Assembly: GCA_013331805.1 (NCBI GenBank)
Contig: DUFS01000083.1
Coordinates: 3,268-21,010, forward strand
Source: Candidatus Micrarchaeota archaeon
GTDB lineage: Archaea; Micrarchaeota; Micrarchaeia; Anstonellales; Anstonellaceae
Reading direction: 5' to 3'
DNA length: 17,743 nucleotides
Shown here: in pieces, positions 208 to 14,589 of the stretch
Layout of the letters: each line of letters begins with the position of its first letter
How positions within the stretch are numbered: position 1 is the first letter of the stretch
The notes under the pieces: generated by a model
The model's input: only the letters and a program-made list of their open reading frames with translations
Told to the model about the DNA's origin: nothing
Database searches by the model: none
Program-made: the position numbers and the translations under genes

Positions 208-1095
208 ATGGCTTTAAAATTAAGCAAATCCGAGATAAGGGCGCTGCGCCAGATATGCCGACAGGACGGCACGGTTAGTGGACTTGCTGCCAAGCTGGGG
301 GCAAAGGAGAGTTTCATGTCCAGGGTTCTTCGTAGCCTGGGGGAAAAAGGTCTTGTTGGGGTAAAAAAGGACGGCGTGAAAAAAACAGTGCAGCTCTCGG
401 TTGCCTCGCACGCACAGAATTTCAAGCTGCTTTCGGACTCAAGACCGGATGCCAAAATAGAGGGCTGGCTTTCCGGATTCGCAATGGACATATTGGTGGT
501 TTCCGAAGATGGCGCTGAAACCAACCTCATACTGGAGGAAACGGGCTGCACTGCCGCCACCCTTTACAAAACTTTGAAATCGCTGCTTTCTGCGGGCGTG
601 CTCCTCTGGAAAAATGGAAGGGTGGAAATAACAGACGGGCTCTTGAAGAAATTCGTTGCCTCATATGCGGACAACATCCAGCTCATTGCCCAGCGCAATG
701 CGAAGGGGTTCAACACTTCAATCCGTATCAGGAAAAACGTTGTCCTTCGGACGGACGCAAAAAACGTTCCGCCATATTTCACGCAAACCGGGCTCTCCGC
801 GCTTGCAAAAAATGGGCTTGAAGCCATGCTGACGTCCTACGATGACTTTTACTTCAACCTTGACGGGCAGAAAAGGGAACTTAGCCCGGAGGAGTCTTTC
901 ATCCATGCCCTGCTTTTGACCACGCTCCAGCAGCATCAGGACATGCCGGTCCTTGCCATCTTCTTTGCCAAGAACAAGCGCAGGCTTGACTTGGGAGCAA
1001 TTAAAAAACTTGCAAAAAAATACATGGTGGAGGGCGCTCTTGAAGAAATCAGGCGGGAAACCGAGTTCCACGAAAAGATGAAGGGATTTGAATGA
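208..1095 (+). CDS. Winged-HTH (MarR/ArsR-like, two HTH segments) protein; putative antitoxin/regulator of the downstream nucleotidyltransferase
   Basis: TVSGLAAKLGAKESFMSRVLRSLGEKGLV and a second HTH-like segment (TAATLYKTLKSLLSAGVL); ATGA overlap with the next gene. Confidence 0.75.
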   Translation: MALKLSKSEIRALRQICRQDGTVSGLAAKLGAKESFMSRVLRSLGEKGLVGVKKDGVKKTVQLSVASHAQNFKLLSDSRPDAKIEGWLSGFAMDILVVSEDGAETNLILEETGCTAATLYKTLKSLLSAGVLLWKNGRVEITDGLLKKFVASYADNIQLIAQRNAKGFNTSIRIRKNVVLRTDAKNVPPYFTQTGLSALAKNGLEAMLTSYDDFYFNLDGQKRELSPEESFIHALLLTTLQQHQDMPVLAIFFAKNKRRLDLGAIKKLAKKYMVEGALEEIRRETEFHEKMKGFE

Positions 1096-1835
1096 GAAGG
1101 AGCTTCACCAAAGGCGATCTGGAAGCGGCGTTCCAAAAGGTCGGCGCAATCCTGCAAAAGCCGCTGACCGTTTACCTTCTGGGCGGCAGCGCAATGTGCT
1201 TCCGCGGGCAGAAGGCAGGCACAAAGGACCTTGACCTGGTTTTCACGAGCAGGGAGGATTTCCAGGATTTTGTTTCCGCAATAGGGAAAAACGGTTTTAC
1301 GGAGGCAAAACAGGTCGAAACCGAATACGCTGACATGATGGCTGCTGGGATTTGGCGCAACAAGGAAGATTTTAGGATGGACCTGTTCGTGAACACAGTC
1401 TGCCGCGCGCTGAGCATTTCTGGAAAAATGGTGCAGAGATCTGAGCTTCTCGGCGAATACGGCAAGCTGGTTGTAAGGCTCGTTTCAAACGAGGATGTAA
1501 TCCTCTTCAAAGGGATAACCGAGCGGCCCGATGATGCGAACGACATAGCGGCAATAATACTCCGCTCCGACATAAACTGGAACGTCGTCTTGGACGAATG
1601 CATTGCCCAGAGCAAAACAACCTCCTGGTACGGGCTTCTTGCAGACAAATTCGCAGATATTGAGGAAACGCAAGGGATAACCGTCCCCATAACGGGCAAA
1701 ATACTGGAACTTGACCGGCAGGTGCTGGTAAAAAACGCGCTTGAAATGCGGCTGAAGAAAGGCATGAGCAGGAAGGACGCGATAAGCGATCTCTCGAAGA
1801 AGGGATTTTCCAAAAAGGAGCTTGAGGGATTGTAA
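1092..1835 (+). CDS. DUF6036/AbiEii-like Pol-beta-superfamily nucleotidyltransferase (putative type IV TA/Abi toxin)
   Basis: VYLLGGSAM...TKDLDLV motif, FRMDLF, and C-terminal K..TERPDDANDI (R-x-x-D-x-x-D) motif. Confidence 0.75.
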   Translation: MRRSFTKGDLEAAFQKVGAILQKPLTVYLLGGSAMCFRGQKAGTKDLDLVFTSREDFQDFVSAIGKNGFTEAKQVETEYADMMAAGIWRNKEDFRMDLFVNTVCRALSISGKMVQRSELLGEYGKLVVRLVSNEDVILFKGITERPDDANDIAAIILRSDINWNVVLDECIAQSKTTSWYGLLADKFADIEETQGITVPITGKILELDRQVLVKNALEMRLKKGMSRKDAISDLSKKGFSKKELEGL

Positions 1836-1912
1836 ATGAAACGTCTCTATCTGTCATTTGCCCACTTGCAAAATGGAGGGATGGCAAGCAAAAAAAGTAT
1901 GATTGTGGAAGT

Positions 1913-2320
1913 TCATGGCGTGAAAAGTTCATTGTTTAGTATTTCTCGCATGCAGGCCGTAGCGCTTCCAGAAAATACCCGTATCCATTCACCAGTATAT
2001 CTCTTATAAGAAAGTTCAAGCCTGCCTTCTCTGCCAAGCACACTGACATACATAAGGCGCGCGAAGCATGTTTCAAAATAAGGCGAAATTGCACGTGGGG
2101 AAGGGCAGGCGTATTTTGAACACAAGTAAAAACAGCCCGCATGCCATTTGGAGTGAATTTCCACCAGGTAGTTGAATTCCCTGTTTTTTGGAGGCTTCTT
2201 GATGTATTTTTTGTGCAGAGCTTCCACGAGCGCCGCCGCTTCAAGTTCAACACGCGCTCGGAGTGTTTCAGGCAGTTTCAGCCTCTTTGGCATGAAAACC
2301 CATGCGCCTCCCCTCGCCAT
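1913..2320 (-). CDS. Conserved-looking hypothetical protein (135 aa)
   Basis: ATG at 2320 preceded by GGAGG. Motifs FNYLVEIHSKW, YACPSP, FARLMY and YKRYTGEW resemble a widespread uncharacterised family (recalled, not searched). Confidence 0.6.
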   Translation of the reverse strand: MARGGAWVFMPKRLKLPETLRARVELEAAALVEALHKKYIKKPPKNREFNYLVEIHSKWHAGCFYLCSKYACPSPRAISPYFETCFARLMYVSVLGREGRLELSYKRYTGEWIRVFSGSATACMREILNNELFTP

Positions 2321-2384
2321 GCAAAGCCTCCAAAAGACGTTGAGACGCAAGAGATATAACGCTTTGGCGCTACACAATGGCGGT

Positions 2385-2939
2385 GTGGTCCTGAGAAAAA
2401 TCTGGCTCATTGTGAAAAATGATTTCAGTTATGGCAGTGCTGGTGTTGCAGTCTTCAGCATCTCAGAGGCTGCGTGGAAAAACTGCGAGGAATTAGCACG
2501 CAAAGAAATAGACTCGCTCAAGGCTTGGGAAGAATTTGAAAGCTCTGCAGTATTCAAGGTGAGGAAACTCAAATCCGAAGACTTCCCTATTCACGGTTTC
2601 GGTGTCTATGTGAAGGAGAAGCAAAGGTTGGAGCGGTTGGCGGCATCTTTCTGCATCAAGGAGCTGCCGTTTGATGAGCTCCCAAAGCCCTCAAAATTTG
2701 CAACAATAATGGAGAAGCCAGTGTTCAGCACGGGCTTGGACAAAGACTCGTTTGTGGCGTCTGTGAGAGAATATGCCCACCTGCCAGGCAGCGGAATTGC
2801 CGATGCGGATGCTTTTTGTGCAAAGATTCTTGAAAAATGGAAGACACTTCGTGAAGAAGGAGATAACATATCTGCTGACGGCTTTCTTGTAATGAGGGAG
2901 AGCTACAGGCTGGATGTTCGCCCCATCAAAACGCAGTGA
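2385..2939 (+). CDS. Hypothetical protein (~184 aa; start uncertain)
   Basis: 3' part of ORF 2172..2939. GTG at 2385 follows a TATA-like ATATAA (~2354-2359) and avoids overlap with the divergent gene; the gene abuts the next ATG. Confidence 0.55.
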   Translation: MVLRKIWLIVKNDFSYGSAGVAVFSISEAAWKNCEELARKEIDSLKAWEEFESSAVFKVRKLKSEDFPIHGFGVYVKEKQRLERLAASFCIKELPFDELPKPSKFATIMEKPVFSTGLDKDSFVASVREYAHLPGSGIADADAFCAKILEKWKTLREEGDNISADGFLVMRESYRLDVRPIKTQ

Positions 2940-2943
2940 TGCC

Positions 2944-3669
2944 ATGAAACTGAAAATAAGCTTTGATGACATTGCGCCTGCCTTTGAGCAGGCATCTGAT
3001 TCTTCTCTTTACATGTTCATCGATACAAAAGAGAACCGCATAGTGGTTCTTTCCGATAATGAGGCTACCGATGCCGATTTTGAGATAATGAAACGACCGA
3101 GATATGTTGCATTGCCCAGAAGGGATTCGAAAGATGATTACTTCCGGATGGAATCATTCACATACGTGATGAGCTGCTGTGATCTTGAGCTTGTGCAGAA
3201 ATTCCACAAGGCATTAAGGCAAAACAAGCCATTCGGGAATTTCAGGGATTTGCTCTCGCAACACTTGGAGATTGAGCAACAATGGTTTGCATTTGAGAAG
3301 AAAGCCGCAAGGAATGACGCAATTGATTGGCTCTGCGAGGAAGGCATTGAGCTTGAGGGCCAGCGGCTGATTCCGGAAATTGAAATCCGCGAGCTGGATG
3401 AAGAAAGTGTCAAAAAGCTGCCTGATGAGATACGGGTTCTGAAGGCGCGAGCCTGCCTGCAATGCCACAACGAAAGTGGACTAGAAGCAAGGCTTTTTGC
3501 AGCGAGCACTCAGATTGTCAATGCAATGATAGAAAACGAGATATATCGCATATTGAAGGACAAATACTCGTTGTCCGAGTACGCGGGCTGGTCGGATGAC
3601 AGCCAGACTGTGCTGGTTGCTGCCAAGTGCCCAAAATGCGGCAGCGAAGAGATATTTTTTGATTACTGA
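2944..3669 (+). CDS. UPF0158-family protein with C-terminal Zn-ribbon-like domain
   Basis: LKISFDDI...YVALP...YFRMESF...KPFGNFRDLL...QWFAFE...DWLCEEGI matches the UPF0158 pattern; CLQC and CPKC pairs follow. Confidence 0.7.
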   Translation: MKLKISFDDIAPAFEQASDSSLYMFIDTKENRIVVLSDNEATDADFEIMKRPRYVALPRRDSKDDYFRMESFTYVMSCCDLELVQKFHKALRQNKPFGNFRDLLSQHLEIEQQWFAFEKKAARNDAIDWLCEEGIELEGQRLIPEIEIRELDEESVKKLPDEIRVLKARACLQCHNESGLEARLFAASTQIVNAMIENEIYRILKDKYSLSEYAGWSDDSQTVLVAAKCPKCGSEEIFFDY

Positions 3670-3678
3670 TGTGATTTC

Positions 3679-6324
3679 TTGAAGGAACAAAAGACATTTC
3701 TGGACTGCCCGCATTGCGGTGCGAGCGTGCGGGATGTAAATTTCAGCGCGCACCTTGCAAAGGCGCACGGGCAGGCGCCGTCCGATGCCGACCGCGCAGC
3801 GCAGAGCGGCAATCCGGAACAGGCTCGGAAGGAAGGTCTTCACAATCTGGCTGGTCTTGCGCACAGTACGCGCAAAAGGAAGGCTGGCGTTGAACAAGCA
3901 TTCAGACGCGACGAGAAGGGAGCATTGCGCCCGCAGGAACATTACGACTATGGAAAGATGTTAAGATACTGGTTCGTATGCAAGGAATGCAAGAGAAAGA
4001 GCCAGCTGCCAACCGGGTTCATATCTGTAGAAGACGAAAAGGGGGAACGGTTGAAATTCATGCTTGAAGTAATGTGCAAGCACTGCGGCTCACACAATGT
4101 TGAAATGGAACAATGGGAACGCTACGGAGTGCTTATGCGTCTGACTTTGGGCGTCAACCTAACGGATGCGCAGGAGGCCGCCCCCGTAGTGGCGGGTGCA
4201 GCGGTTGGCGGCGTTGAAATGGATGCCGCAAAAGCCATCCATTATTACGAAAAGGCACTTGCCAGCAAAGATGCGGATGATTGGGAGAAATGGACAAGAT
4301 ATGCAAACCTTCTCAGAGTCACCAACAGGTACGACGATGCAATAGCCGCATTTCGCAAGGCAGGGGAGCTTAAGCGTTCGACAGTGGCGCCTCCGCTTGG
4401 GCTCGGGAAGATTTTTTTCCACCGCTGGAAAATCTATGGGATGAAGGGCGCGCGGCAGGAGGCAAAGGAGAACCTTGCGCGCGCCCTGATTGCCAACAAG
4501 GCAAACGGAGACCTTGCAACCATCCACAATGAAAGGTGGGAAGTTGAACAAGGGATATGCGAGTTGCTCGATAAAACCGGCACTGTGGGAACTGGCATTG
4601 CGCTCGCCTCTACGCGAGATATTGAAAAGGAATTTGCCAAAGGAATAAAGAATGGCACAGGGGGCGAAATAAGCGTCAGAATGTCCTCAATGCAGGAAGT
4701 GGCAGAAGCAGCATCCAACGCAGCTGCTATGCTGTTGGTTGAAAAGCCTCAGACGGACAAGGCGGAATTGATCCGCGCGCTGGAATCGCTTGGGAATGAC
4801 CTTGATTCCAATGACGCTCTTGCTTCATATTTCCGCGACCACGCCAAAGTTGCATTGATGCAGAAAATCAAGAATGGCAGGGTGTATAACGTGGCAGAGC
4901 TGCGTGGCGGCATGGCATTGGCTGCAGGGCTGCTCAAGAAAGAGCCGAAATATTTTGCAGCACTGCACGTGGATGCCGAGGAGAACAGACGCAAGATTTC
5001 CAGAAAAGCGCCATCAGTAAGGGAAAAAACAGACAACCCTGATGCAAACACTGAAGGAACACAGAAAATGAATGCGGTGCGGCTGTCCAATGGCAAAATA
5101 AGGCTGGATTTCGGAAATGAACTGGATTCCATAGCAGACGAGTGCCCCTGCCCGACCTGCATGTTCCGCTCTACGCCGCGCTACAAGAGCATCTTAGAGC
5201 AATATTCGCAGAACCATTCATTGCCTGCAGAAAACTGCCAGCTTTCGGATTACATCAGCTATATCTCAGATCTTGCATATTTTGCAAACTACGTGTATAC
5301 GGAAAACGGCACCAGCATGGCTGAGCAGAACCAAAAATACAGCCTTGCCACATTCGACTTTCGCATGCTGCTAAGGTTTGAAGATGATGATTACTACCGC
5401 TTGAAGGAAAAGGCGCAGGAACCCGACGCCAAGTGTATAAAGGAGCTTGGCAAGTTGGCTCATGCATACCCGCGCGACGAAACAGTGCTGGATTTGTACG
5501 CCGAGGTGCTCATACACGATTTCCAGTTCCATGCGGCAGAAAAAGTGCTGGACAAGATAGATGTGCTGCACCCAGACAAAAGGGCGCACGACTGCATAAA
5601 CGCCCGCGCACAGCTTATGATACAGCGCGATTTCGACTTTGAGCGCGCGCTTCGGATTGCGGATGAGGGACTGCTTCTTTACCCAAAATCGTTCGACCTG
5701 AACATCACCAAAGCAGCCGTGCTTTCGTGGAGCAATGACAAGAACGGCGCGGCAACCTACCGCGAGGCAGCGCGTGCCATAGACTCCAAGAGGTACGAGA
5801 AATTCATGAAGGAACACTGGATTGAGGATGCGCCAGAAGAGATGAAGACGCTGCGCTTTATGCACACATGCAACGAAATAATGATGCTGCATGATGGGAA
5901 TGCTGAAGCACAGAAGCTTCTTGAGAGGGCGGTGCGCTTCTGCCCAAGAGGCAATCGCGACGCCGAAATGCTGGTACGAAGGATGGGCTTTGACATTGCG
6001 CTCTCGCAAAACGACCTTGCGCGCGCAGCCGCACTGGTTGCTGAAATGCAGCTTGCTGGAGTTGAGGAGAACTGCCTGTATTGCGAAGGGGCGCTTGCCT
6101 ACCGGCAAGGCGGCTGGAAAACTGCGCTCTCAAAGGCGCGCGAAGCGCAGGAAATGGCTTCAAAAAAGAAGGCGAAATATTTCCTTCCAGCCCTCTATCT
6201 CATCGAGGAAGTTTCCCGCGCGCAGGGTGACGCGGAAGGACTGAAAGATGCGCGCGAAAAAATCGCTGCTGCGCGCGCCTACCTTGCCACTATTGCACCG
6301 CCAAAATTTGGCCGGCAGCGATAA
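3679..6324 (+). CDS. Large multidomain Zn-finger/TPR-repeat protein (881 aa)
   Basis: CPHC..H...H, CKEC/CKHC, TPR-like helices (YANLLRVTNRYDDAIAAFRKA; LYAEVLIHDFQFHAAEKVLDK; YCEGALAYRQGGWKTAL), and an internal CPCPTC. Confidence 0.75.
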   Translation: MKEQKTFLDCPHCGASVRDVNFSAHLAKAHGQAPSDADRAAQSGNPEQARKEGLHNLAGLAHSTRKRKAGVEQAFRRDEKGALRPQEHYDYGKMLRYWFVCKECKRKSQLPTGFISVEDEKGERLKFMLEVMCKHCGSHNVEMEQWERYGVLMRLTLGVNLTDAQEAAPVVAGAAVGGVEMDAAKAIHYYEKALASKDADDWEKWTRYANLLRVTNRYDDAIAAFRKAGELKRSTVAPPLGLGKIFFHRWKIYGMKGARQEAKENLARALIANKANGDLATIHNERWEVEQGICELLDKTGTVGTGIALASTRDIEKEFAKGIKNGTGGEISVRMSSMQEVAEAASNAAAMLLVEKPQTDKAELIRALESLGNDLDSNDALASYFRDHAKVALMQKIKNGRVYNVAELRGGMALAAGLLKKEPKYFAALHVDAEENRRKISRKAPSVREKTDNPDANTEGTQKMNAVRLSNGKIRLDFGNELDSIADECPCPTCMFRSTPRYKSILEQYSQNHSLPAENCQLSDYISYISDLAYFANYVYTENGTSMAEQNQKYSLATFDFRMLLRFEDDDYYRLKEKAQEPDAKCIKELGKLAHAYPRDETVLDLYAEVLIHDFQFHAAEKVLDKIDVLHPDKRAHDCINARAQLMIQRDFDFERALRIADEGLLLYPKSFDLNITKAAVLSWSNDKNGAATYREAARAIDSKRYEKFMKEHWIEDAPEEMKTLRFMHTCNEIMMLHDGNAEAQKLLERAVRFCPRGNRDAEMLVRRMGFDIALSQNDLARAAALVAEMQLAGVEENCLYCEGALAYRQGGWKTALSKAREAQEMASKKKAKYFLPALYLIEEVSRAQGDAEGLKDAREKIAAARAYLATIAPPKFGRQR

Positions 6325-6471
6325 TTGCTGCATTCGCTTTGATATAACACGGCTCCGCAAAATGCTGTGCGCTTCATCCAAAATCTAAATTACACAACAT
6401 TGCCTGCGATGCTGAGAGTCTCATTTCAAAACGCCATTTTCAAATCAGAAAATCCTTCTTTCTCCTCGATG

Positions 6472-6509
6472 ACCCCGGGACAGAACGTACCAGTCTACGC
6501 CACGACCCC
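6472..6509 (-). tRNA. tRNA-Pro-like 5' half only (positions ~1-38); split-tRNA half, att remnant or pseudogene
   Basis: GGGGTCG-TG-GCGT-AGACTGGT-ACGT-T-CTGTC-CC-GGG-GT: acceptor strand, U8, A14G15, G18G19 and a paired D-stem. No T-arm or CGACCCC was found downstream. Position 33 is C rather than U. Confidence 0.55.
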
Positions 6510-6586
6510 GCGCTTCCACACTGGGTTATGCAGGCGCTGGTTTATGAGCACCTGCGAGGGGTTGTGGAACGACCCCTGCTTTGCGC
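6510..6586 (-). ncRNA. Structured ~77-nt leader RNA (two hairpins plus a potential pseudoknot) abutting the tRNA half
   Basis: Closing GCGC/GCGC, AGGGGT/ACCCCT and GCAGGTGCT/AGCGCCTGC stems; loop TTCCACA is complementary to downstream TGTGGAA. Confidence 0.45.
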
Positions 6587-6607
6587 TACCGAGTTATGGC
6601 TGGCATC

Positions 6608-6617
6608 TTTTTATATA
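6608..6617 (-). promoter_or_regulatory. Archaeal TATA box (TATATAAAAA) for the leader/tRNA-half transcript
   Basis: Lies just after the DUF475 stop codon and predicts a start site near 6587, where the structured leader begins. Confidence 0.55.
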
Positions 6618-6621
6618 GGTT

Positions 6622-7557
6622 TTAGGCGGCGGTTCCTCGCACTTTTATGTGCTCGTGCGATTTCCAGAAGAAGTAGCCTATGCAGCCGAATGTCAGCACC
6701 GGGGAGACATAGGCTGGAATGTGGGCGCCGAATGCATCAAGGAGCATTATTGCCCCGAGAAGGAGGATGGAATACATCGCCCCGTTCTTGAGGTATATGT
6801 ATTTTTTCACGGTCTCAATGTTCCTGATGGTCAGCTCGCGGACCACCAATGCGCCAAGCCCGTTGCCAAGGAGTATGAGGGGGACCGACAGCGTGAATGC
6901 GAACGCCCCGATCACCCCGTCCACCGAGAATGTGCTGTCTATGACCTCAAGGTAGAGTATCTTGCTCCAGTCGCCCATATTGGCCGAGCCCCCGTGCAGA
7001 AGCTGCTGCTCGTGCTGCTCGGCATTCTGCTTGAAGCCATGCGTTATGAAAAAGGCTGTTGAGCCCACCACTGCCCCGAATGCCATGAGCTGGTTCCGTC
7101 CCATCGCAAACCACACGATAAGCGTGAGGAGTATGGACACGACTGCATAGAACCACACTCCCTGCTTTTGGAAGAAGCGCTCCGGGTGCAAGCCGAAGGA
7201 TTTTGACTCCAGGAACAGCCAGTGGAAGAACAGGAAAACCAGGAAAACCCCGCCCCCCGCAAGCAGAATGGGGGAGCTTTGCTCCACAGCCGCAGCAACG
7301 GCAGGGTCGGAGCTGAAAGTCGCGAAAAGCGCTCCATCGGGCCCGAGAGAGGGGGTTGCAGCCCATACGATAAGGAGGGGGAGTGCGCCGCGCACCACAA
7401 ATACGGCGATTACGATCCCGAATGTGAGGAACCAGCGCCGCGCGCGCTCACTCATTTTGGATAGCACCTCGGCGTTTATCACTGCGTTGTCTATGCTGAT
7501 TATTGACTCAAAGAGCACAAGCCCGAGCACGGTGAGCAGCATTCCAAACAGATCCAT
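6622..7557 (-). CDS. DUF475 / TerC-like integral membrane protein
   Basis: LFESIISIDNAVINA and LYLEVIDSTFSVDGVIGAFA motifs, many TM helices; TATA-like TTTATTTAA about 25 nt upstream (leaderless). Confidence 0.9.
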   Translation of the reverse strand: MDLFGMLLTVLGLVLFESIISIDNAVINAEVLSKMSERARRWFLTFGIVIAVFVVRGALPLLIVWAATPSLGPDGALFATFSSDPAVAAAVEQSSPILLAGGGVFLVFLFFHWLFLESKSFGLHPERFFQKQGVWFYAVVSILLTLIVWFAMGRNQLMAFGAVVGSTAFFITHGFKQNAEQHEQQLLHGGSANMGDWSKILYLEVIDSTFSVDGVIGAFAFTLSVPLILLGNGLGALVVRELTIRNIETVKKYIYLKNGAMYSILLLGAIMLLDAFGAHIPAYVSPVLTFGCIGYFFWKSHEHIKVRGTAA

Positions 7558-10058: not shown

Positions 10059-10553
10059 TCAGAGTCTGTCCTTTGCATTGCCGCCGTCCCCGCTTATCGG
10101 CTTTCCGTTGATTTTGACGCTGTTTTCAAACGGGAGCTTCACGTAATAGACCCCTTCCTCGTCCTTGAGCACCACCGGATTTTCAGACAGCGCCTTGATG
10201 TCCACGAGGAAGACGCCCTCCTTGATTATTTTGATATTCTCCACGTCCTCCGAAGTGAATGTGGTGCGGGCGAAGTATGATTCGGGTGCTTTGCCGCTGC
10301 TTTCGGCCTTTTCAGCTGCCGATTCTTTTATTGGAGCAGCCTTGCTTTTCTCCTCACCCATAATTTGCTGCGGCTGTTCCTGCGCCTGCGGCACCTGCAA
10401 GGGCCCTTGGGCTGTCTTGGGAGGGGGGTCCTCAGCTGCCTTTTCCTCAACAGACTCCTTGTTGAAGACAAAAACCTTGGAGCCGCAGGGGCAGCCGTTG
10501 TCTATTTCCTCAAGCGAGGCCGCAGCCCTGCCGCATCTGACGCAATTGTGCAT
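10059..10553 (-). CDS. oapC: OapC/ArvC (DUF2072) Zn-ribbon protein
   Basis: MHNCVRCG...GCPCGSKVFVF, low-complexity linker, VENIKIIKEGVFLVDIKAL and EEGVYYVKL; GGTGA RBS before the ATG at 10553; adjacent to oapA. Confidence 0.85.
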   Translation of the reverse strand: MHNCVRCGRAAASLEEIDNGCPCGSKVFVFNKESVEEKAAEDPPPKTAQGPLQVPQAQEQPQQIMGEEKSKAAPIKESAAEKAESSGKAPESYFARTTFTSEDVENIKIIKEGVFLVDIKALSENPVVLKDEEGVYYVKLPFENSVKINGKPISGDGGNAKDRL

Positions 10554-10572
10554 AATGTCACCAAAGGGCAAA

Positions 10573-11229: not shown

Positions 11230-12420
11230 TTAAAAAGGCGCCTTATGTGCCGCTTCGCCCCCCTTGAGGAAAAACTCGCCCTTTGAAGCCATGCCAATCA
11301 CCTTGGGAAGGCCGACGTGCTCGCGCTCCAGGATTTTTCCTGCTGCCTCCTCCCAGGTCTTGCAGCCAGATATGTCCACCTTTTCCTGGTAGATTATGGC
11401 GCCGCCGTCCAGCGACTCGTCCACAAAGTGGATGGTGTAGCCTGATATTTTCTCCCCTGCCTCAAACGCGTCCTTCTGCGCGTGCGCCCCGGGGTATTTT
11501 GGAAGGAGCGATGGGTGGATGTTGATCATCCTGCCCTTGTATAATGAAAGAAGCGAGCTGCTTTTGATTATCTTCATGTAGCCGGCAAGCACCACCAGGT
11601 CTGGAGAAAGCTCGTCGAGCTTTTCCTTGATTTTCCCATCCAAATCCTCGCGCGATGACCATTGCATCACATATGCCGGGATGCCGCTTTCATTCGCTCG
11701 CTCAATTGCCGCTGCATCAGGGTTGTCGGTAATGAGCCCTACGATTTCCACATCCAGCTCGCCTTTTTTTCTCGCATCGATAATTGACTGGAAATCGCTT
11801 CCCCTGCCCGAGGCAAGCACTGCAATTCGGAATTTCCTTTCCGACGCAGGCGAAAAATCCATTTCGCATGTTATCGCGCCTTTTTCCGTGACTATCATGT
11901 CCATCGCAATGTCGTGCGGCTCCTCGGGAATTCTTTCTACAAGCTGCATGTCATAGGCCAGCCCGATTTTCTTGCAGCTGAACTTGCGAAGGAGCGAGTC
12001 ATAGTAGCCCATGCCAAAGCCTATCCGATGCCCGCGCCTGTCAAAGGAGACTCCTGGCACCACGGCAAGCCCGATTGATTCCGGGGCAACTTTCATTTCG
12101 GGCTTTATTGGGGGCTCGAGGATTCCGAATGCGCCTGGCGAAAGCTCGTCAATGGAATTTATCCTGAAAAGCTCGAGCGTTTTTGTCTCCTTATTGGTCA
12201 CGGGAAGCGCCACGCACTTGCCAAGCGAAAGCGCGGACTGGATTATCCCATCTGTATGTACTTCGCCCTTTTTGGAGGCGTAAAGCAGTATGCAGGAGGC
12301 AGAATCGAACTCTGGCAGGCGGATGAAGCGGTCCATTATGTTGAGGCAGTGCACGTGCCCGCCCGAGGAGTGGTAGGATTCGCGCCTCTCGATCATTTCC
12401 CTGCGGATGCGGTCCTTCAT
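11230..12420 (-). CDS. purN: Fusion of 5-formyltetrahydrofolate cyclo-ligase (N-terminal) and phosphoribosylglycinamide formyltransferase PurN (C-terminal)
   Basis: GAFGILEP and VPGVSFDRRGHRIGFGMGYYD, then IAVLASGRGS, LAGYMKI, INIHPSLLP and HFVDESLDGG, all in one frame. Confidence 0.9.
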   Translation of the reverse strand: MKDRIRREMIERRESYHSSGGHVHCLNIMDRFIRLPEFDSASCILLYASKKGEVHTDGIIQSALSLGKCVALPVTNKETKTLELFRINSIDELSPGAFGILEPPIKPEMKVAPESIGLAVVPGVSFDRRGHRIGFGMGYYDSLLRKFSCKKIGLAYDMQLVERIPEEPHDIAMDMIVTEKGAITCEMDFSPASERKFRIAVLASGRGSDFQSIIDARKKGELDVEIVGLITDNPDAAAIERANESGIPAYVMQWSSREDLDGKIKEKLDELSPDLVVLAGYMKIIKSSSLLSLYKGRMINIHPSLLPKYPGAHAQKDAFEAGEKISGYTIHFVDESLDGGAIIYQEKVDISGCKTWEEAAGKILEREHVGLPKVIGMASKGEFFLKGGEAAHKAPF

Positions 12421-13746: not shown

Positions 13747-14589
13747 TCACTTCCCGCCGCGAATGCGGTAGCAGAGGATTGCGTTATGCATCAGGGCGGC
13801 AACCGTCATGGGCCCCACCCCCCCTGGCACTGGCGTGATGAGCGAGGCTTTTTCCTTCACAGAATCAAAGTCAACGTCTCCGATGAGTTTTTCGCCTTCC
13901 CTGCTTGTGCCGGCATCTATGACAACCGCACCTTGCTTCACCATGCCTGCCTTGAGGAGCTTGGGCTTGCCTACTGCTACGCAGACAATGTCCGCCTGCG
14001 CAGACAATGAGCCGATGTCAGGGGTTTTGCTGTGGCATATGCTCACTGTGCAGTTCTCGTTCAATAGAAGAAGAGCAAGCGGCTTTCCCACTATCCTGCT
14101 CCTGCCGATCACCACCGCGTGCTTTCCTGCCAAAGCAACCCCGCTTTGCTTGAGCAGGTGCAGGATGCCCAGTGGGGTGCAGGGGATTATTTTCCCCTGG
14201 TTGAACGCGAGCTTTCCGAAATTCTCCGGATGGAACCCGTCAGCGTCCTTTTCAGGCGCAACCTGCGCTAGCACCTTATCCTCGTCTATTGCTTGAGGCA
14301 TGGGAACCTGGACCAGTATTGCGTCCACCTTGCCCTCCTTGTTCAGCTTTTGGACCGCCCCTATCACTTCGCTTTGGGTTGCAGATGCAGGCAGCCGCAC
14401 GTCCTTGGATACAATGCCCGTGAATTTGCAGGCTTCGATTTTTTTCCTGACATAGACTTCTGATGCGGGGTCATTTCCCACCAGGACTATTGCAAGGCAT
14501 GGTGGGCGCGAAAGGGAGGATACCTCCTGCGCAGCCTTTTCAAGGAGCGCATCCGCCATTTTTTTCCCGTCGATTATTTTTGCAGGCAT
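13747..14589 (-). CDS. folD: Bifunctional methylene-THF dehydrogenase/cyclohydrolase
   Basis: IIDGK, YVRKK, KDADGFH, PCTP, GRSRIVGKP and TPVPGGVGPMT. Confidence 0.97.
   Translation of the reverse strand: MPAKIIDGKKMADALLEKAAQEVSSLSRPPCLAIVLVGNDPASEVYVRKKIEACKFTGIVSKDVRLPASATQSEVIGAVQKLNKEGKVDAILVQVPMPQAIDEDKVLAQVAPEKDADGFHPENFGKLAFNQGKIIPCTPLGILHLLKQSGVALAGKHAVVIGRSRIVGKPLALLLLNENCTVSICHSKTPDIGSLSAQADIVCVAVGKPKLLKAGMVKQGAVVIDAGTSREGEKLIGDVDFDSVKEKASLITPVPGGVGPMTVAALMHNAILCYRIRGGK

What the first reader, a model, noticed from the sequence alone, without database searches (positions are those of the whole stretch)
6510..6586. Unrecognised pseudoknotted RNA fused directly to tRNA position +1
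Seen on the minus strand: GCGC-AAAGC-[AGGGGT CGTTCCACA ACCCCT]-C-[GCAGGTGCT CATAAACC AGCGCCTGC]-ATAACCCAG-TGTGGAA-GCGC|tRNA. The loop TTCCACA can pair over 7 bp with TGTGGAA. The leader also repeats the tRNA's first 8 nt (GGGGTCGT), and its ACAACCCC could pair with the acceptor strand in place of the missing 3' half. I cannot match it to SRP, RNase P, 5S, twister, pistol or HDV consensus. Inference: a novel ncRNA, a processing element, or a folding chaperone for the tRNA half.
Basis: partly seen in the sequence, partly recalled or inferred. Interest (0 to 1): 0.7.

Follow-up and report, generated by a model that had tools for sequence, protein, structure and literature searches.

The report
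Duplicated tRNA-start module beside dead tRNA-Trp fragment
The supposed new RNA fused to a tRNA is a conserved, partly palindromic copy of a tRNA gene's own promoter and first bases, and here it sits in front of a dead tRNA-Trp stump at the edge of an inserted gene island in a Micrarchaeota genome.

Summary
Three parts of the reading fail.

- **No tRNA follows.** Only the first 13-14 nt of tRNA-Trp are there. They form the left direct repeat of an accessory-gene island; the intact tRNA-Trp lies on another contig.
- **The 7-bp pseudoknot is not supported.** A stem that long arises in 10% of shuffles and shows no covariation.
- **No Rfam family matches.**

The stretch is still a real element. 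It is one copy of a 65-77-bp module found only in one Micrarchaeota family (12 of 151 genomes of the order). It always sits directly 5' of tRNA-Trp, tRNA-Pro(CGG) or tRNA-Pro(GGG), or of their stumps. Its order is:

- a direct copy of tRNA nt 1-8;
- TCC;
- an inverted copy of nt -4..+8;
- a TATA-like box at -43..-32;
- a leader;
- the tRNA.

Covariation across 20 units supports one helix, between the inverted copy and -4..+10 of the tRNA start (0 of 500 shuffles).

My best reading (0.5) is a promoter-bearing replacement 5' module at a tRNA 5'-end insertion hot spot. A functional leader RNA switch remains open (0.22).

The parts
6608..6617 (-). TATA-like box of the ancestral tRNA-Trp promoter (P1), -41..-32 from copy 1
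   Evidence: Read. The same promoter (90% identity) directly drives a complete tRNA-Trp in G015. Box position measured.
6569..6576 (-). Copy 1: direct copy of tRNA-Trp nt 1-8 (GGGGTCGT), where the tRNA would start relative to P1
   Evidence: Copy 1 equals nt 1-8 of the downstream start in 18 of 20 units.
6566..6568 (-). TCC spacer; its CC can pair with G9 G10 of the tRNA start
   Evidence: Nearly invariant columns. The pairs 18-96 and 19-95 are C-G in 19 of 20 units.
6554..6565 (-). Inverted copy of nt -4..+8 of the downstream start (ACAACCCC+TCGC), the 5' strand of the covarying helix
   Evidence: In own-genome tRNA loci the best inverted match has 4-6 mismatches of 12; here it has 2.
6530..6555 (-). 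Hairpin 2 (GCAGGTGCT / AGCGCCTGC). Its loop CATAAACC (6539-6546) is a degenerate copy of the CATAATATTAACA box
   Evidence: Hairpin 2 is 76.2% paired with 5 pairs changed on both sides, in Trp units only. The A/T box lies inside -43..-32 in 15 of 19 units, at 6/9 A/T here.
6514..6520 (-).
   Evidence: Present in about 10 of 15 units by eye. No covariation in A1. Chance level 10%.
6502..6513 (-). GCGC + copy 2 (GGGGTCGT), the -4..+8 of the tRNA-Trp stump and the 3' strand of the covarying helix
6441..6509 (-). tRNA-Trp 5' stump (nt 1-14 identical, about 10 more diverged), then a conserved non-tRNA tail (..GGGGTCATCGAG..) and T-runs. This is the left direct repeat and end of the island.
   Evidence: Family members in G020, G003, G022 and G000:C71 at 76-91% identity. 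An intact tRNA-Trp lies 1.25 kb (G020) and 10.5 kb (G022) further on the same strand. No tRNA call.
208..6324 (+). Accessory-gene island next to the stump: TrmB-like HTH, DUF6036 nucleotidyltransferase, DUF3024 (on the - strand), a 255-aa ORF and an 881-aa ORF with no family, and UPF0158
   Evidence: It continues on C56:1-3267 with HEPN, a nucleotidyltransferase and an IS200-like fragment. Its far end is not on the contig.
6622..7557 (-). DUF475/TerC-family membrane protein gene, the conserved host neighbour upstream of tRNA-Trp
   Evidence: In G006 the order is DUF475, two modules, then a complete tRNA-Trp.

Best explanation
**What it is (shown).** The 77 nt are one copy of a 65-77-bp 'tRNA-start module' specific to one family of Micrarchaeota. 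The module re-duplicates the start of the tRNA gene it precedes. Its order is:
- a direct copy of tRNA nt 1-8, placed about 25-40 nt behind an upstream TATA-like box;
- TCC;
- an inverted copy of nt -4..+8 of the downstream start;
- a second A/T-rich TATA-like box at -43..-32;
- a leader of about 30 nt;
- the tRNA.

In this window the module is not followed by a tRNA. It is followed by a stump holding tRNA-Trp nt 1-14 plus a conserved non-tRNA tail. In relatives the same stump is the left direct repeat of inserted accessory-gene islands, whose right end is a complete tRNA-Trp with its own promoter and leader.

**How it works (inferred).** The 5' end of tRNA-Trp is an insertion hot spot, and the tRNA-Pro genes with a similar start may be too. 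Inserted DNA brings a replacement promoter, leader and first bases, so that a complete and expressed tRNA is rebuilt at one end while a stump is left at the other. The module is the smallest form of that replacement arm. Its 12-14-bp inverted repeat is the conserved pairing or recognition element. The repeat is contiguous as a 27-bp palindrome only if copy 1 and copy 2 are recombined. When read through from the upstream promoter, the module is simply a long leader that RNase P can remove.
For: **Family and specificity.**
- BLAST and a covariance model find the module in 12 of 151 genomes of the order. All are in family f1 (11 of 41 besides the own genome); the other families give 0 of 109.
- It precedes complete tRNA-Trp (G024, G005:C6, G041, G051, G017, G006), tRNA-Pro(CGG) (G011, G003, G017, G022, G005) and tRNA-Pro(GGG) (G005). 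Copy 1 equals that tRNA's own nt 1-8 in 18 of 20 units.

**Helix.**
- The helix is 87.9% paired over 20 units. Seven pairs and 28 cells have changes on both sides; 0 of 500 shuffles reach the covariation score (or the share of cells paired), and 1 of 500 reaches seven such pairs. Slid controls give 35-54%.
- The four pairs outside the tRNA are 80, 70, 95 and 85% paired. Against the flank of copy 1 they are 45, 55, 30 and 50% paired.
- RNAalifold picks the same helix on its own.

**Promoter.**
- The A/T box lies inside -43..-32 in 15 of 19 units. The canonical tRNA-Trp box sits at -41..-32.
- The P2 box and leader resemble the P1 box and leader (29 of 2000 shuffles score as well).

**Islands.** A stump, then cargo, then a complete tRNA-Trp on one strand:
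- G019: a 1.1-kb Fic gene.
- G020: 1.25 kb with Fic.
- G022: 10.5 kb.
- G000:C71: 3.8 kb with AbiEi/AbiEii, HNH and SWIM.

**Host order.** G006 keeps DUF475, modules, complete tRNA-Trp, so the tRNA has been displaced here.

**Leader removal.** RNase P RNA is present at 87.7 bits against a cut-off of 84.

**Precedent.** Passages of the review PMC8371274 report that pTN3-like integrases use the 5' half of a tRNA gene and that the rebuilt tRNA is expressed from an element promoter.
Against: - **No recombinase is tied to these sites.** Five islands have none by Pfam: the one in this window, G000:C71, G019, G020 and G022.
- The one tyrosine recombinase, at the far end of the G005:C1 island, runs off the contig. 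Among its relatives, 2 of 11 fetched loci lie near a tRNA, on its 3' side, and 0 of 11 carry a module.
- **The far end of this window's island is not on the contig.** C56 and C71 do not overlap.
- **At tRNA-Pro(CGG) the module sits in conserved host surroundings with no cargo.** Dus and an E1-E2 ATPase are the neighbours. That looks like a stable part of the gene rather than a scar.
- **Compensatory changes in the 4 bp outside the tRNA are what selection on a nucleic-acid helix gives.** A protein site would not show them.
- **The palindrome's 3-bp centre fits no known core-site geometry.**
- **No module was found on viral contigs.** There were 2 pattern matches, scoring 18.4 and 10.9 bits against 34-97 bits for real units.
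- **DNA contigs from four runs show this locus unchanged, with no empty site**.
Confidence: 0.5

Rival explanations
1. A functional cis-acting leader RNA. Transcribed from the upstream promoter, the inverted copy can pair with copy 1, giving an 8-bp hairpin with a TCC loop that mimics the tRNA's acceptor stem and leaves the tRNA free. Or it can pair with -4..+10 of the real tRNA, giving a 12-14-bp helix that buries the RNase P site. The choice would gate maturation of tRNA-Trp and tRNA-Pro.
For: - Compensatory changes sit exactly in the 4 bp outside the tRNA, with nine different tetramers by my count of the table, mostly matched by their partners.
- The module is kept in conserved host surroundings at tRNA-Pro(CGG) in two diverged types.
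- Copy 1 tracks the identity of each tRNA.
- A TATA-like box lies 25-40 nt before copy 1 in most loci, so read-through transcripts are plausible.
- Hairpin 2 has many G-U pairs on the tRNA-sense strand.
Against: - No RNA data were available.
- Several helix mismatches are C-A on the tRNA-sense strand and would be G-U on the other strand, so the strand signal is mixed.
- The module is absent in front of complete tRNA-Trp genes in G015, G021 and G019, so it is dispensable.
- It also precedes dead stumps, as here.
- If the internal box is the working promoter, the inverted copy is not in the transcript.
Confidence: 0.22
2. A neutral quasi-palindrome. It would be a fold-back or tandem duplication of the promoter and tRNA start whose arms are kept alike by replication template switching. 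Only the A/T box (the promoter) would be functional.
For: - The module is made of direct and inverted copies of adjacent DNA.
- P2 resembles P1.
- A second own-genome tRNA (C37:16793-16949) has a 14-nt direct copy of its own start 59 nt upstream. By my own reading of the upstream sequence printed there, an inverted partial copy follows.
- That template switching can create compensatory-looking changes in short hairpins is recalled knowledge, not taken from a call.
Against: Trp and Pro modules are homologous outside the repeats (covariance-model E-values down to about 1e-13). They are about 80% identical between genera while their flanks do not align. That argues for constraint or transfer rather than drift.
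Confidence: 0.15
3. An archaeal bulge-helix-bulge intron inserted after tRNA nt 8, with copy 1 as exon 1, cut out by the splicing endonuclease.
For: With splice sites after nt 8 of each copy, a 4-bp central helix (GGYC with GGYC), 3-nt bulges and a 2-3-bp inner helix (CC with G1 G2) can be drawn in 17 of 17 units.
Against: - The outer helix is 0 bp in 17 of 17 units.
- The central helix is a trivial result of GGYC being self-complementary, and has two G-U pairs in Trp.
- The same scan recovers the tRNA-Phe and tRNA-Leu introns with 5-bp outer helices.
- This fold excludes the covarying helix.
Confidence: 0.04
4. One reading: a 5' half of a split tRNA (anticodon-loop-like CC GGG GT) with a chaperoning or processing leader.
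For: The stump family is conserved in five loci. Four of them read CT GGG GT at the anticodon-loop place.
Against: - No 3' half was found. The only T-arm followed by a matching acceptor strand in the genome is the complete tRNA-Trp. The assembly is 91.5% complete.
- The stump's anticodon-stem strand cannot pair with the tRNA-Trp 3' exon.
- In G020 and G022 a complete tRNA-Trp follows the stump on the same strand.
Confidence: 0.03

Closest known systems
Integration into the 5' half of archaeal tRNA genes by pTN3-like (SSV-family) integrases
   Same: Both leave direct repeats of the tRNA's 5' part around inserted DNA. A complete tRNA is rebuilt and expressed from a promoter supplied by the insert. 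Tandem insertions at one tRNA occur. (Review PMC8371274, passages only.)
   Different: No SSV/pTN3-type integrase split by the site was found. Most islands here have no recombinase at all. The repeat is only 13-14 nt. The palindromic start module has no counterpart in the passages I read. That review does not mention DPANN or Micrarchaeota (0 occurrences).
Split tRNA halves of Nanoarchaeum and Caldivirga (recalled, not read here)
   Same: A separately promoted piece that begins like a tRNA and stops near the anticodon loop.
   Different: No 3' half and no complementary leader-trailer pair. A complete tRNA of the same start exists in the genome and, in relatives, just downstream.
Bulge-helix-bulge tRNA introns at non-canonical positions (recalled; the motif geometry was checked on own-genome introns)
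   Same: An insert inside the first bases of a tRNA, flanked by short repeats, in a lineage with many tRNA introns.
   Different: The outer helix is missing in every unit. The conserved helix is a different one.
H-type RNA pseudoknot
   Same: Two stems whose strands interleave can be drawn.
   Different: The two stems abut with 0-nt loops, so they cannot both form. Only one of them covaries.

Membership tests
Any Rfam family | Match at or above the family's gathering score | tested here: not met
   0 matches in the window at gathering thresholds. In E-value mode over 6200-6800 there are 2 matches, at E 0.29 and 7. Both lie inside the DUF475 gene and none in 6440-6620.
tRNA gene (for the part after 6510) | Cloverleaf with acceptor, D, anticodon and T arms | tested here: not met
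   ARAGORN finds 0 genes in the window. The Rfam tRNA model gives 22 matches in the genome, none on C56. Only nt 1-14 equal tRNA-Trp.
Split-tRNA 5' half | A 3' half elsewhere whose acceptor strand pairs with it | tested here: not met
   Scans for a T-arm followed by CGACCCC, CGATCCC or near variants find only the complete tRNA-Trp. Caveat: the assembly is 91.5% complete, in 83 contigs.
Split-tRNA 5' half | A trailer complementary to the leader of the 3' half | tested here: not met
   No complement of the trailer lies next to a T-arm-like motif.
Bulge-helix-bulge intron (strict hBHBh') | A 4-bp central helix between two 3-nt bulges, closed by an outer and an inner helix | tested here: not met
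   At the only register with a central helix (after nt 8) the outer helix is 0 bp in 17 of 17 units. The scan finds the tRNA-Phe and tRNA-Leu introns. It does not find the tRNA-Trp intron, so relaxed motifs can escape it.
H-type pseudoknot | Both stems supported and sterically compatible | tested here: not met
   Stem TTCCACA/TGTGGAA is 69.4% paired, has 0 double changes, and all 500 shuffles are as good. Chance of such a stem is 10.45%. The loops would be 0 nt.
Integrative-element attachment site in a tRNA 5' half | Direct repeats of the tRNA's 5' part flanking non-core DNA, with a complete tRNA at one end | tested here: inconclusive
   Met in G019, G020, G022 and G000:C71. For the island in this window only the left repeat is on the contig.
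Integrative-element attachment site in a tRNA 5' half | A site-specific recombinase encoded next to the site | tested here: not met
   None by Pfam or NCBIfam in five islands. One tyrosine recombinase lies at the contig end of the G005:C1 island, linkage unknown. 0 of 11 homologue loci carry a module.
Integrative-element attachment site in a tRNA 5' half | An insert-borne promoter for the rebuilt tRNA | tested here: inconclusive
   An A/T box lies inside -43..-32 in 15 of 19 units, the spacing of the canonical box. Activity cannot be tested here.

The most novel reading that the evidence does not exclude
The module is a cis-acting RNA device made from the tRNA's own start. It holds an acceptor-stem mimic (copy 1, TCC, inverted copy) and an anti-acceptor strand that can instead capture -4..+10 of the nascent tRNA and hide the RNase P site. 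This two-state leader would gate maturation of tRNA-Trp and tRNA-Pro in Micrarchaeota. A variant of the same reading is a miniature element that homes to tRNA starts by this pairing.
Probability: 0.22. Interest if true: 0.75.

Novelty: new variant of a known kind. Interest (0 to 1): 0.45.

Why it matters
For annotation, the stump should not be called a tRNA or a tRNA half, and the leader is not a pseudoknotted ncRNA.

For biology:
- It documents an insertion hot spot at the 5' end of tRNA-Trp in a DPANN lineage. The islands are small, lack an integrase, and mostly carry toxin-antitoxin or defence-type genes. Each is bounded by 13-14-nt repeats, and each copy has its own promoter and leader.
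- The passages I read give 5'-half targeting as a peculiarity of pTN3-like elements.
- The conserved palindromic start module, with clean compensatory changes outside the tRNA, is unexplained by any family I could test. It offers a concrete, small object (about 70 nt) for testing leader-controlled tRNA maturation or a new recombination site.

Tried and rejected
- **Rfam** and **ARAGORN**: nothing at the locus.
- **Permuted or two-piece tRNA or tmRNA**: no T-arm or 3' acceptor strand up- or downstream.
- **C50 candidate 3' half**: it lies in what looks like coding sequence and has no proper T-arm; dropped.
- **RNA evidence**: no RNA holder listed.
- **DNA contigs of four runs**: they bridge 6395-6973 unchanged. 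No joint skips the module; all listed joints lie at 6681 or beyond, inside the DUF475 gene.
- **Collection scans with a 17-base pattern**: 106 and 119+ stretches, nearly all chance matches in GC-rich bacteria. Only 19 loci have a tRNA start behind the pattern. Two further strings (L032, L140) were dropped as bacterial chance matches.
- **Viral contigs**: 2 pattern matches, neither a unit.
- **Integron attC, IS200/IS605 ends and REP elements**: considered by eye and rejected. There is one copy per site, the two hairpins are unlike each other, and the R'/R'' order is wrong.
- **A small divergent ORF starting at the conserved CAT upstream of some units**: the peptides are not conserved.
- **881-aa ORF against the SWIM protein of the C71 island**: unrelated.
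- **Contig ends of C56 and C71**: no overlap.
- **Earlier notes of this scan**: nothing at this place or with this sequence.

Full report
**1. Observation**

The minus strand of 6620-6440 reads in this order:
- a TATA-like box (tatataaaaa, 6617-6608);
- a short leader;
- GGGGTCGT (6576-6569);
- TCC;
- ACAACCCC TCGC (6565-6554);
- a 9-bp hairpin with loop CATAAACC (6555-6530);
- ATAACCCAG, TGTGGAA, GCGC;
- GGGGTCGT again (6509-6502);
- GGCGTAGACTGGTACGTTCTGTCCC GGGGTCAT CGAGGAG and T-runs.

Three exact GGGGTCRT sites and one inverted near-copy lie within 108 nt; the rest of the window holds one exact site. The 95 nt fold at -40.5 kcal/mol, with z -2.59.

The 7-bp TTCCACA/TGTGGAA pairing is not beyond chance. 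10.45% of 2000 shuffles of the 77 nt hold a perfect stem that long.

**2. No tRNA follows**

ARAGORN calls nothing in the window. Rfam finds nothing at gathering scores and nothing in 6440-6620 in E-value mode. The Rfam tRNA model gives 22 matches in the genome, 16 of them over the cut-off, and none here.

The genome has 1.19 Mb in 83 contigs, 52.9% GC and 91.5% completeness. Record titles of matching relatives name Micrarchaeota.

Its complete tRNA-Trp(CCA), which carries an intron, is at C71:10331-10440. The window piece shares nt 1-14 with it and then diverges.

No 3' half exists. The only T-arm followed by a fitting acceptor strand in the genome is that tRNA-Trp.

**3. What the stump is**

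The stump and its non-tRNA tail form a conserved family. Members are in G020, G003, G022 and a second copy at G000:C71:14282-14347, at 76-91% identity.

In relatives a complete tRNA-Trp follows the stump on the same strand:
- 1.25 kb on in G020, with a Fic gene between;
- 10.5 kb on in G022, with transporters and trehalose genes between;
- in G019, a module plus tRNA nt 1-13, then a 1.1-kb Fic gene, then a promoter and a complete tRNA-Trp;
- in G000:C71, 3.8 kb holding AbiEi/AbiEii, HNH and SWIM genes between the second stump and the real tRNA-Trp.

One metagenome contig holds two modules 1.67 kb apart, each followed by tRNA nt 1-13.

Left of the stump, the window carries a TrmB-like regulator, a DUF6036 nucleotidyltransferase, DUF3024, UPF0158, and 255-aa and 881-aa ORFs with no family. 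The contig goes on with HEPN, a nucleotidyltransferase and an IS200-like fragment. Right of the locus the genes are housekeeping ones: DUF475, archease, OapC and folate enzymes.

G006 keeps the order DUF475, two modules, complete tRNA-Trp. I therefore read the stump as the left direct repeat of inserted DNA that displaced the tRNA. The far end of this island is not on the contig, and C56 and C71 do not overlap. For this window that reading is an inference from relatives.

**4. The leader is a member of a family**

In G015 the same promoter (90% identical) drives tRNA-Trp directly. The 67 nt between the two GGGGTCGT copies are missing there.

With the insert, the locus recurs in G005 (twice), G024, G019, G041, G051, G017 and G006 (two in tandem), and on metagenome contigs. 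That gives 15 distinct units.

A covariance model built from 14 units finds it in 12 of 151 genomes of the order. All are in family f1 (11 of 41 besides the own genome); the other families give 0 of 109.

The new hits lie in front of tRNA-Pro(CGG) in five genomes and tRNA-Pro(GGG) in one. There the direct copy is that tRNA's own start: GGGGCCGT, or GGGGCCAT against GGGGTCAT.

The tRNA-Pro(CGG) loci share host neighbours (Dus, an E1-E2 ATPase) and have no cargo.

**5. Structure**

Helix between the inverted copy and -4..+8 of the downstream start, on 14 units:
- 86.7% of cells paired;
- 4 pairs and 14 cells changed on both sides;
- 0 of 500 shuffles as good.

The same helix on 20 units, extended by CC with G9 G10:
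- 87.9% paired;
- 7 pairs and 28 cells changed on both sides;
- 0 of 500 shuffles as good;
- slid controls 35-54%.

The four pairs outside the tRNA take nine different tetramers by my count. Examples are TCGC/GCGA, GTGC/GCAC, AAGC/GCTT, GAAA/TTTC, GCCT/AGGC and GTTA/TAAC. They are 80, 70, 95 and 85% paired. The same four letters against the flank of copy 1 are 45, 55, 30 and 50% paired.

RNAalifold chooses this helix unprompted.

Hairpin 2 is kept in Trp units, at 76.2% paired with 5 pairs changed on both sides and many G-U pairs on the tRNA-sense strand. It is not kept in Pro units.

By eye it is there in about 10 of 15 units and is compensated in two (G041 and L058). It is absent from G017, G006a, L038, L079 and L049.

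It abuts the covarying helix on both strands, so the two cannot coexist.

In the window's own copy the helix has 2 mismatches in 12. Other own-genome tRNA loci have 4-6 mismatches at best.

**6. Promoter**

The most conserved interior motif, CATAATATTAACA, lies inside -43..-32 of the tRNA in 15 of 19 units. The canonical tRNA-Trp box sits at -41..-32, and other own-genome tRNAs have theirs between about -39 and -22.

The window's copy is degenerate, at 6 of 9 A/T. The stretch from box to tRNA resembles the canonical box and leader (29 of 2000 shuffles score as well).

Most units also have a TATA-like box 25-40 nt before copy 1. The module therefore looks like a second promoter-plus-start placed behind the first.

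**7. Other models tested**

- *A bulge-helix-bulge intron.* The only register with a central helix (after nt 8) has no outer helix in 17 of 17 units. The scan recovers the tRNA-Phe and tRNA-Leu introns.
- *RNase P.* Its RNA is present, so long leaders need no special route.
- *A recombinase.* None is encoded in five islands. One tyrosine recombinase sits at the contig end of the G005:C1 island. It has many homologues in the family, up to 17 in one genome. Among them, 2 of 11 fetched loci lie at tRNA 3' sides and none holds a module.

**8. Comparison with what is known**

Passages of a review of archaeal tyrosine recombinases (PMC8371274) say that pTN3-like integrases use the 5' half of a tRNA gene. 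They also say the rebuilt tRNA is expressed from an element promoter, and that tandem integrations occur. That is the nearest known kind.

That review has no mention of DPANN or Micrarchaeota. My three literature searches found no description of such a module. They cover open-access papers and preprints only.

**9. Verdict**

The finding is real as sequence and as a conserved element, but it is mis-described. It is a duplicated, partly inverted tRNA-start module with a promoter-like box, sitting before a dead tRNA-Trp stump at an island border.

Probabilities:
- replacement promoter and 5' arm of an insertion hot spot: 0.5;
- functional leader RNA switch: 0.22;
- neutral quasi-palindrome: 0.15;
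- bulge-helix-bulge intron: 0.04;
- split-tRNA half: 0.03.

The covarying helix is the part that no known family explains.

Noticed in passing
G000:C37:16793-16949 (minus strand; outside the window): Another intron-bearing tRNA has an exact 14-nt direct copy of its own start (GCCGACGTGGCAGA) 59 nt upstream, followed by an inverted partial copy (TCTGCCAC CGGC). This is the same direct-plus-inverted layout as the module, but with unrelated sequence.
   Followed up: partly
L030 (G000:C71) 10441-10560 and 14348-14422; L009, L010, L264: Two further leader types precede tRNA-Trp or its stumps. One carries scrambled pieces of tRNA-Trp (D-arm-like ACCTGGTAGCG, CTACGACGTGAA). The other has a GC-rich hairpin. 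They swap places between stumps and complete genes in different genomes.
   Followed up: partly
window 3679-6324 (+): An 881-aa ORF next to the stump has no Pfam or NCBIfam match and only two marginal PHROGs matches (E 0.0019 and 0.0083, unknown function).
   Followed up: partly
window 11230-12420 (-): One 396-aa ORF joins a 5-formyltetrahydrofolate cyclo-ligase domain to a formyltransferase domain, inside a run of folate and purine genes.
   Followed up: no
L031 (G000:C56) 2935-3231 (-): A 98-aa fragment of an IS200-like Y1 transposase, beside a HEPN/nucleotidyltransferase pair, lies in the same island just outside the window.
   Followed up: no
L030 (G000:C71) 10331-10440 (-): The intron of the complete tRNA-Trp shows no strict bulge-helix-bulge motif in a scan that recovers those of tRNA-Phe and tRNA-Leu. 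The intron's 3' part repeats the anticodon-loop letters CCAGA.
   Followed up: partly
family f1 genomes: Homologues of one tyrosine recombinase (about 400 aa) are very unevenly spread: 17 matches in G003 and 10 in G017, but none in 18 of the 42 genomes searched.
   Followed up: no
whole genome G000: Few tRNAs are detectable: ARAGORN finds 12 and the Rfam tRNA model finds 16 over the cut-off. Several carry long introns. Either many are unassembled or they escape standard finders.
   Followed up: no
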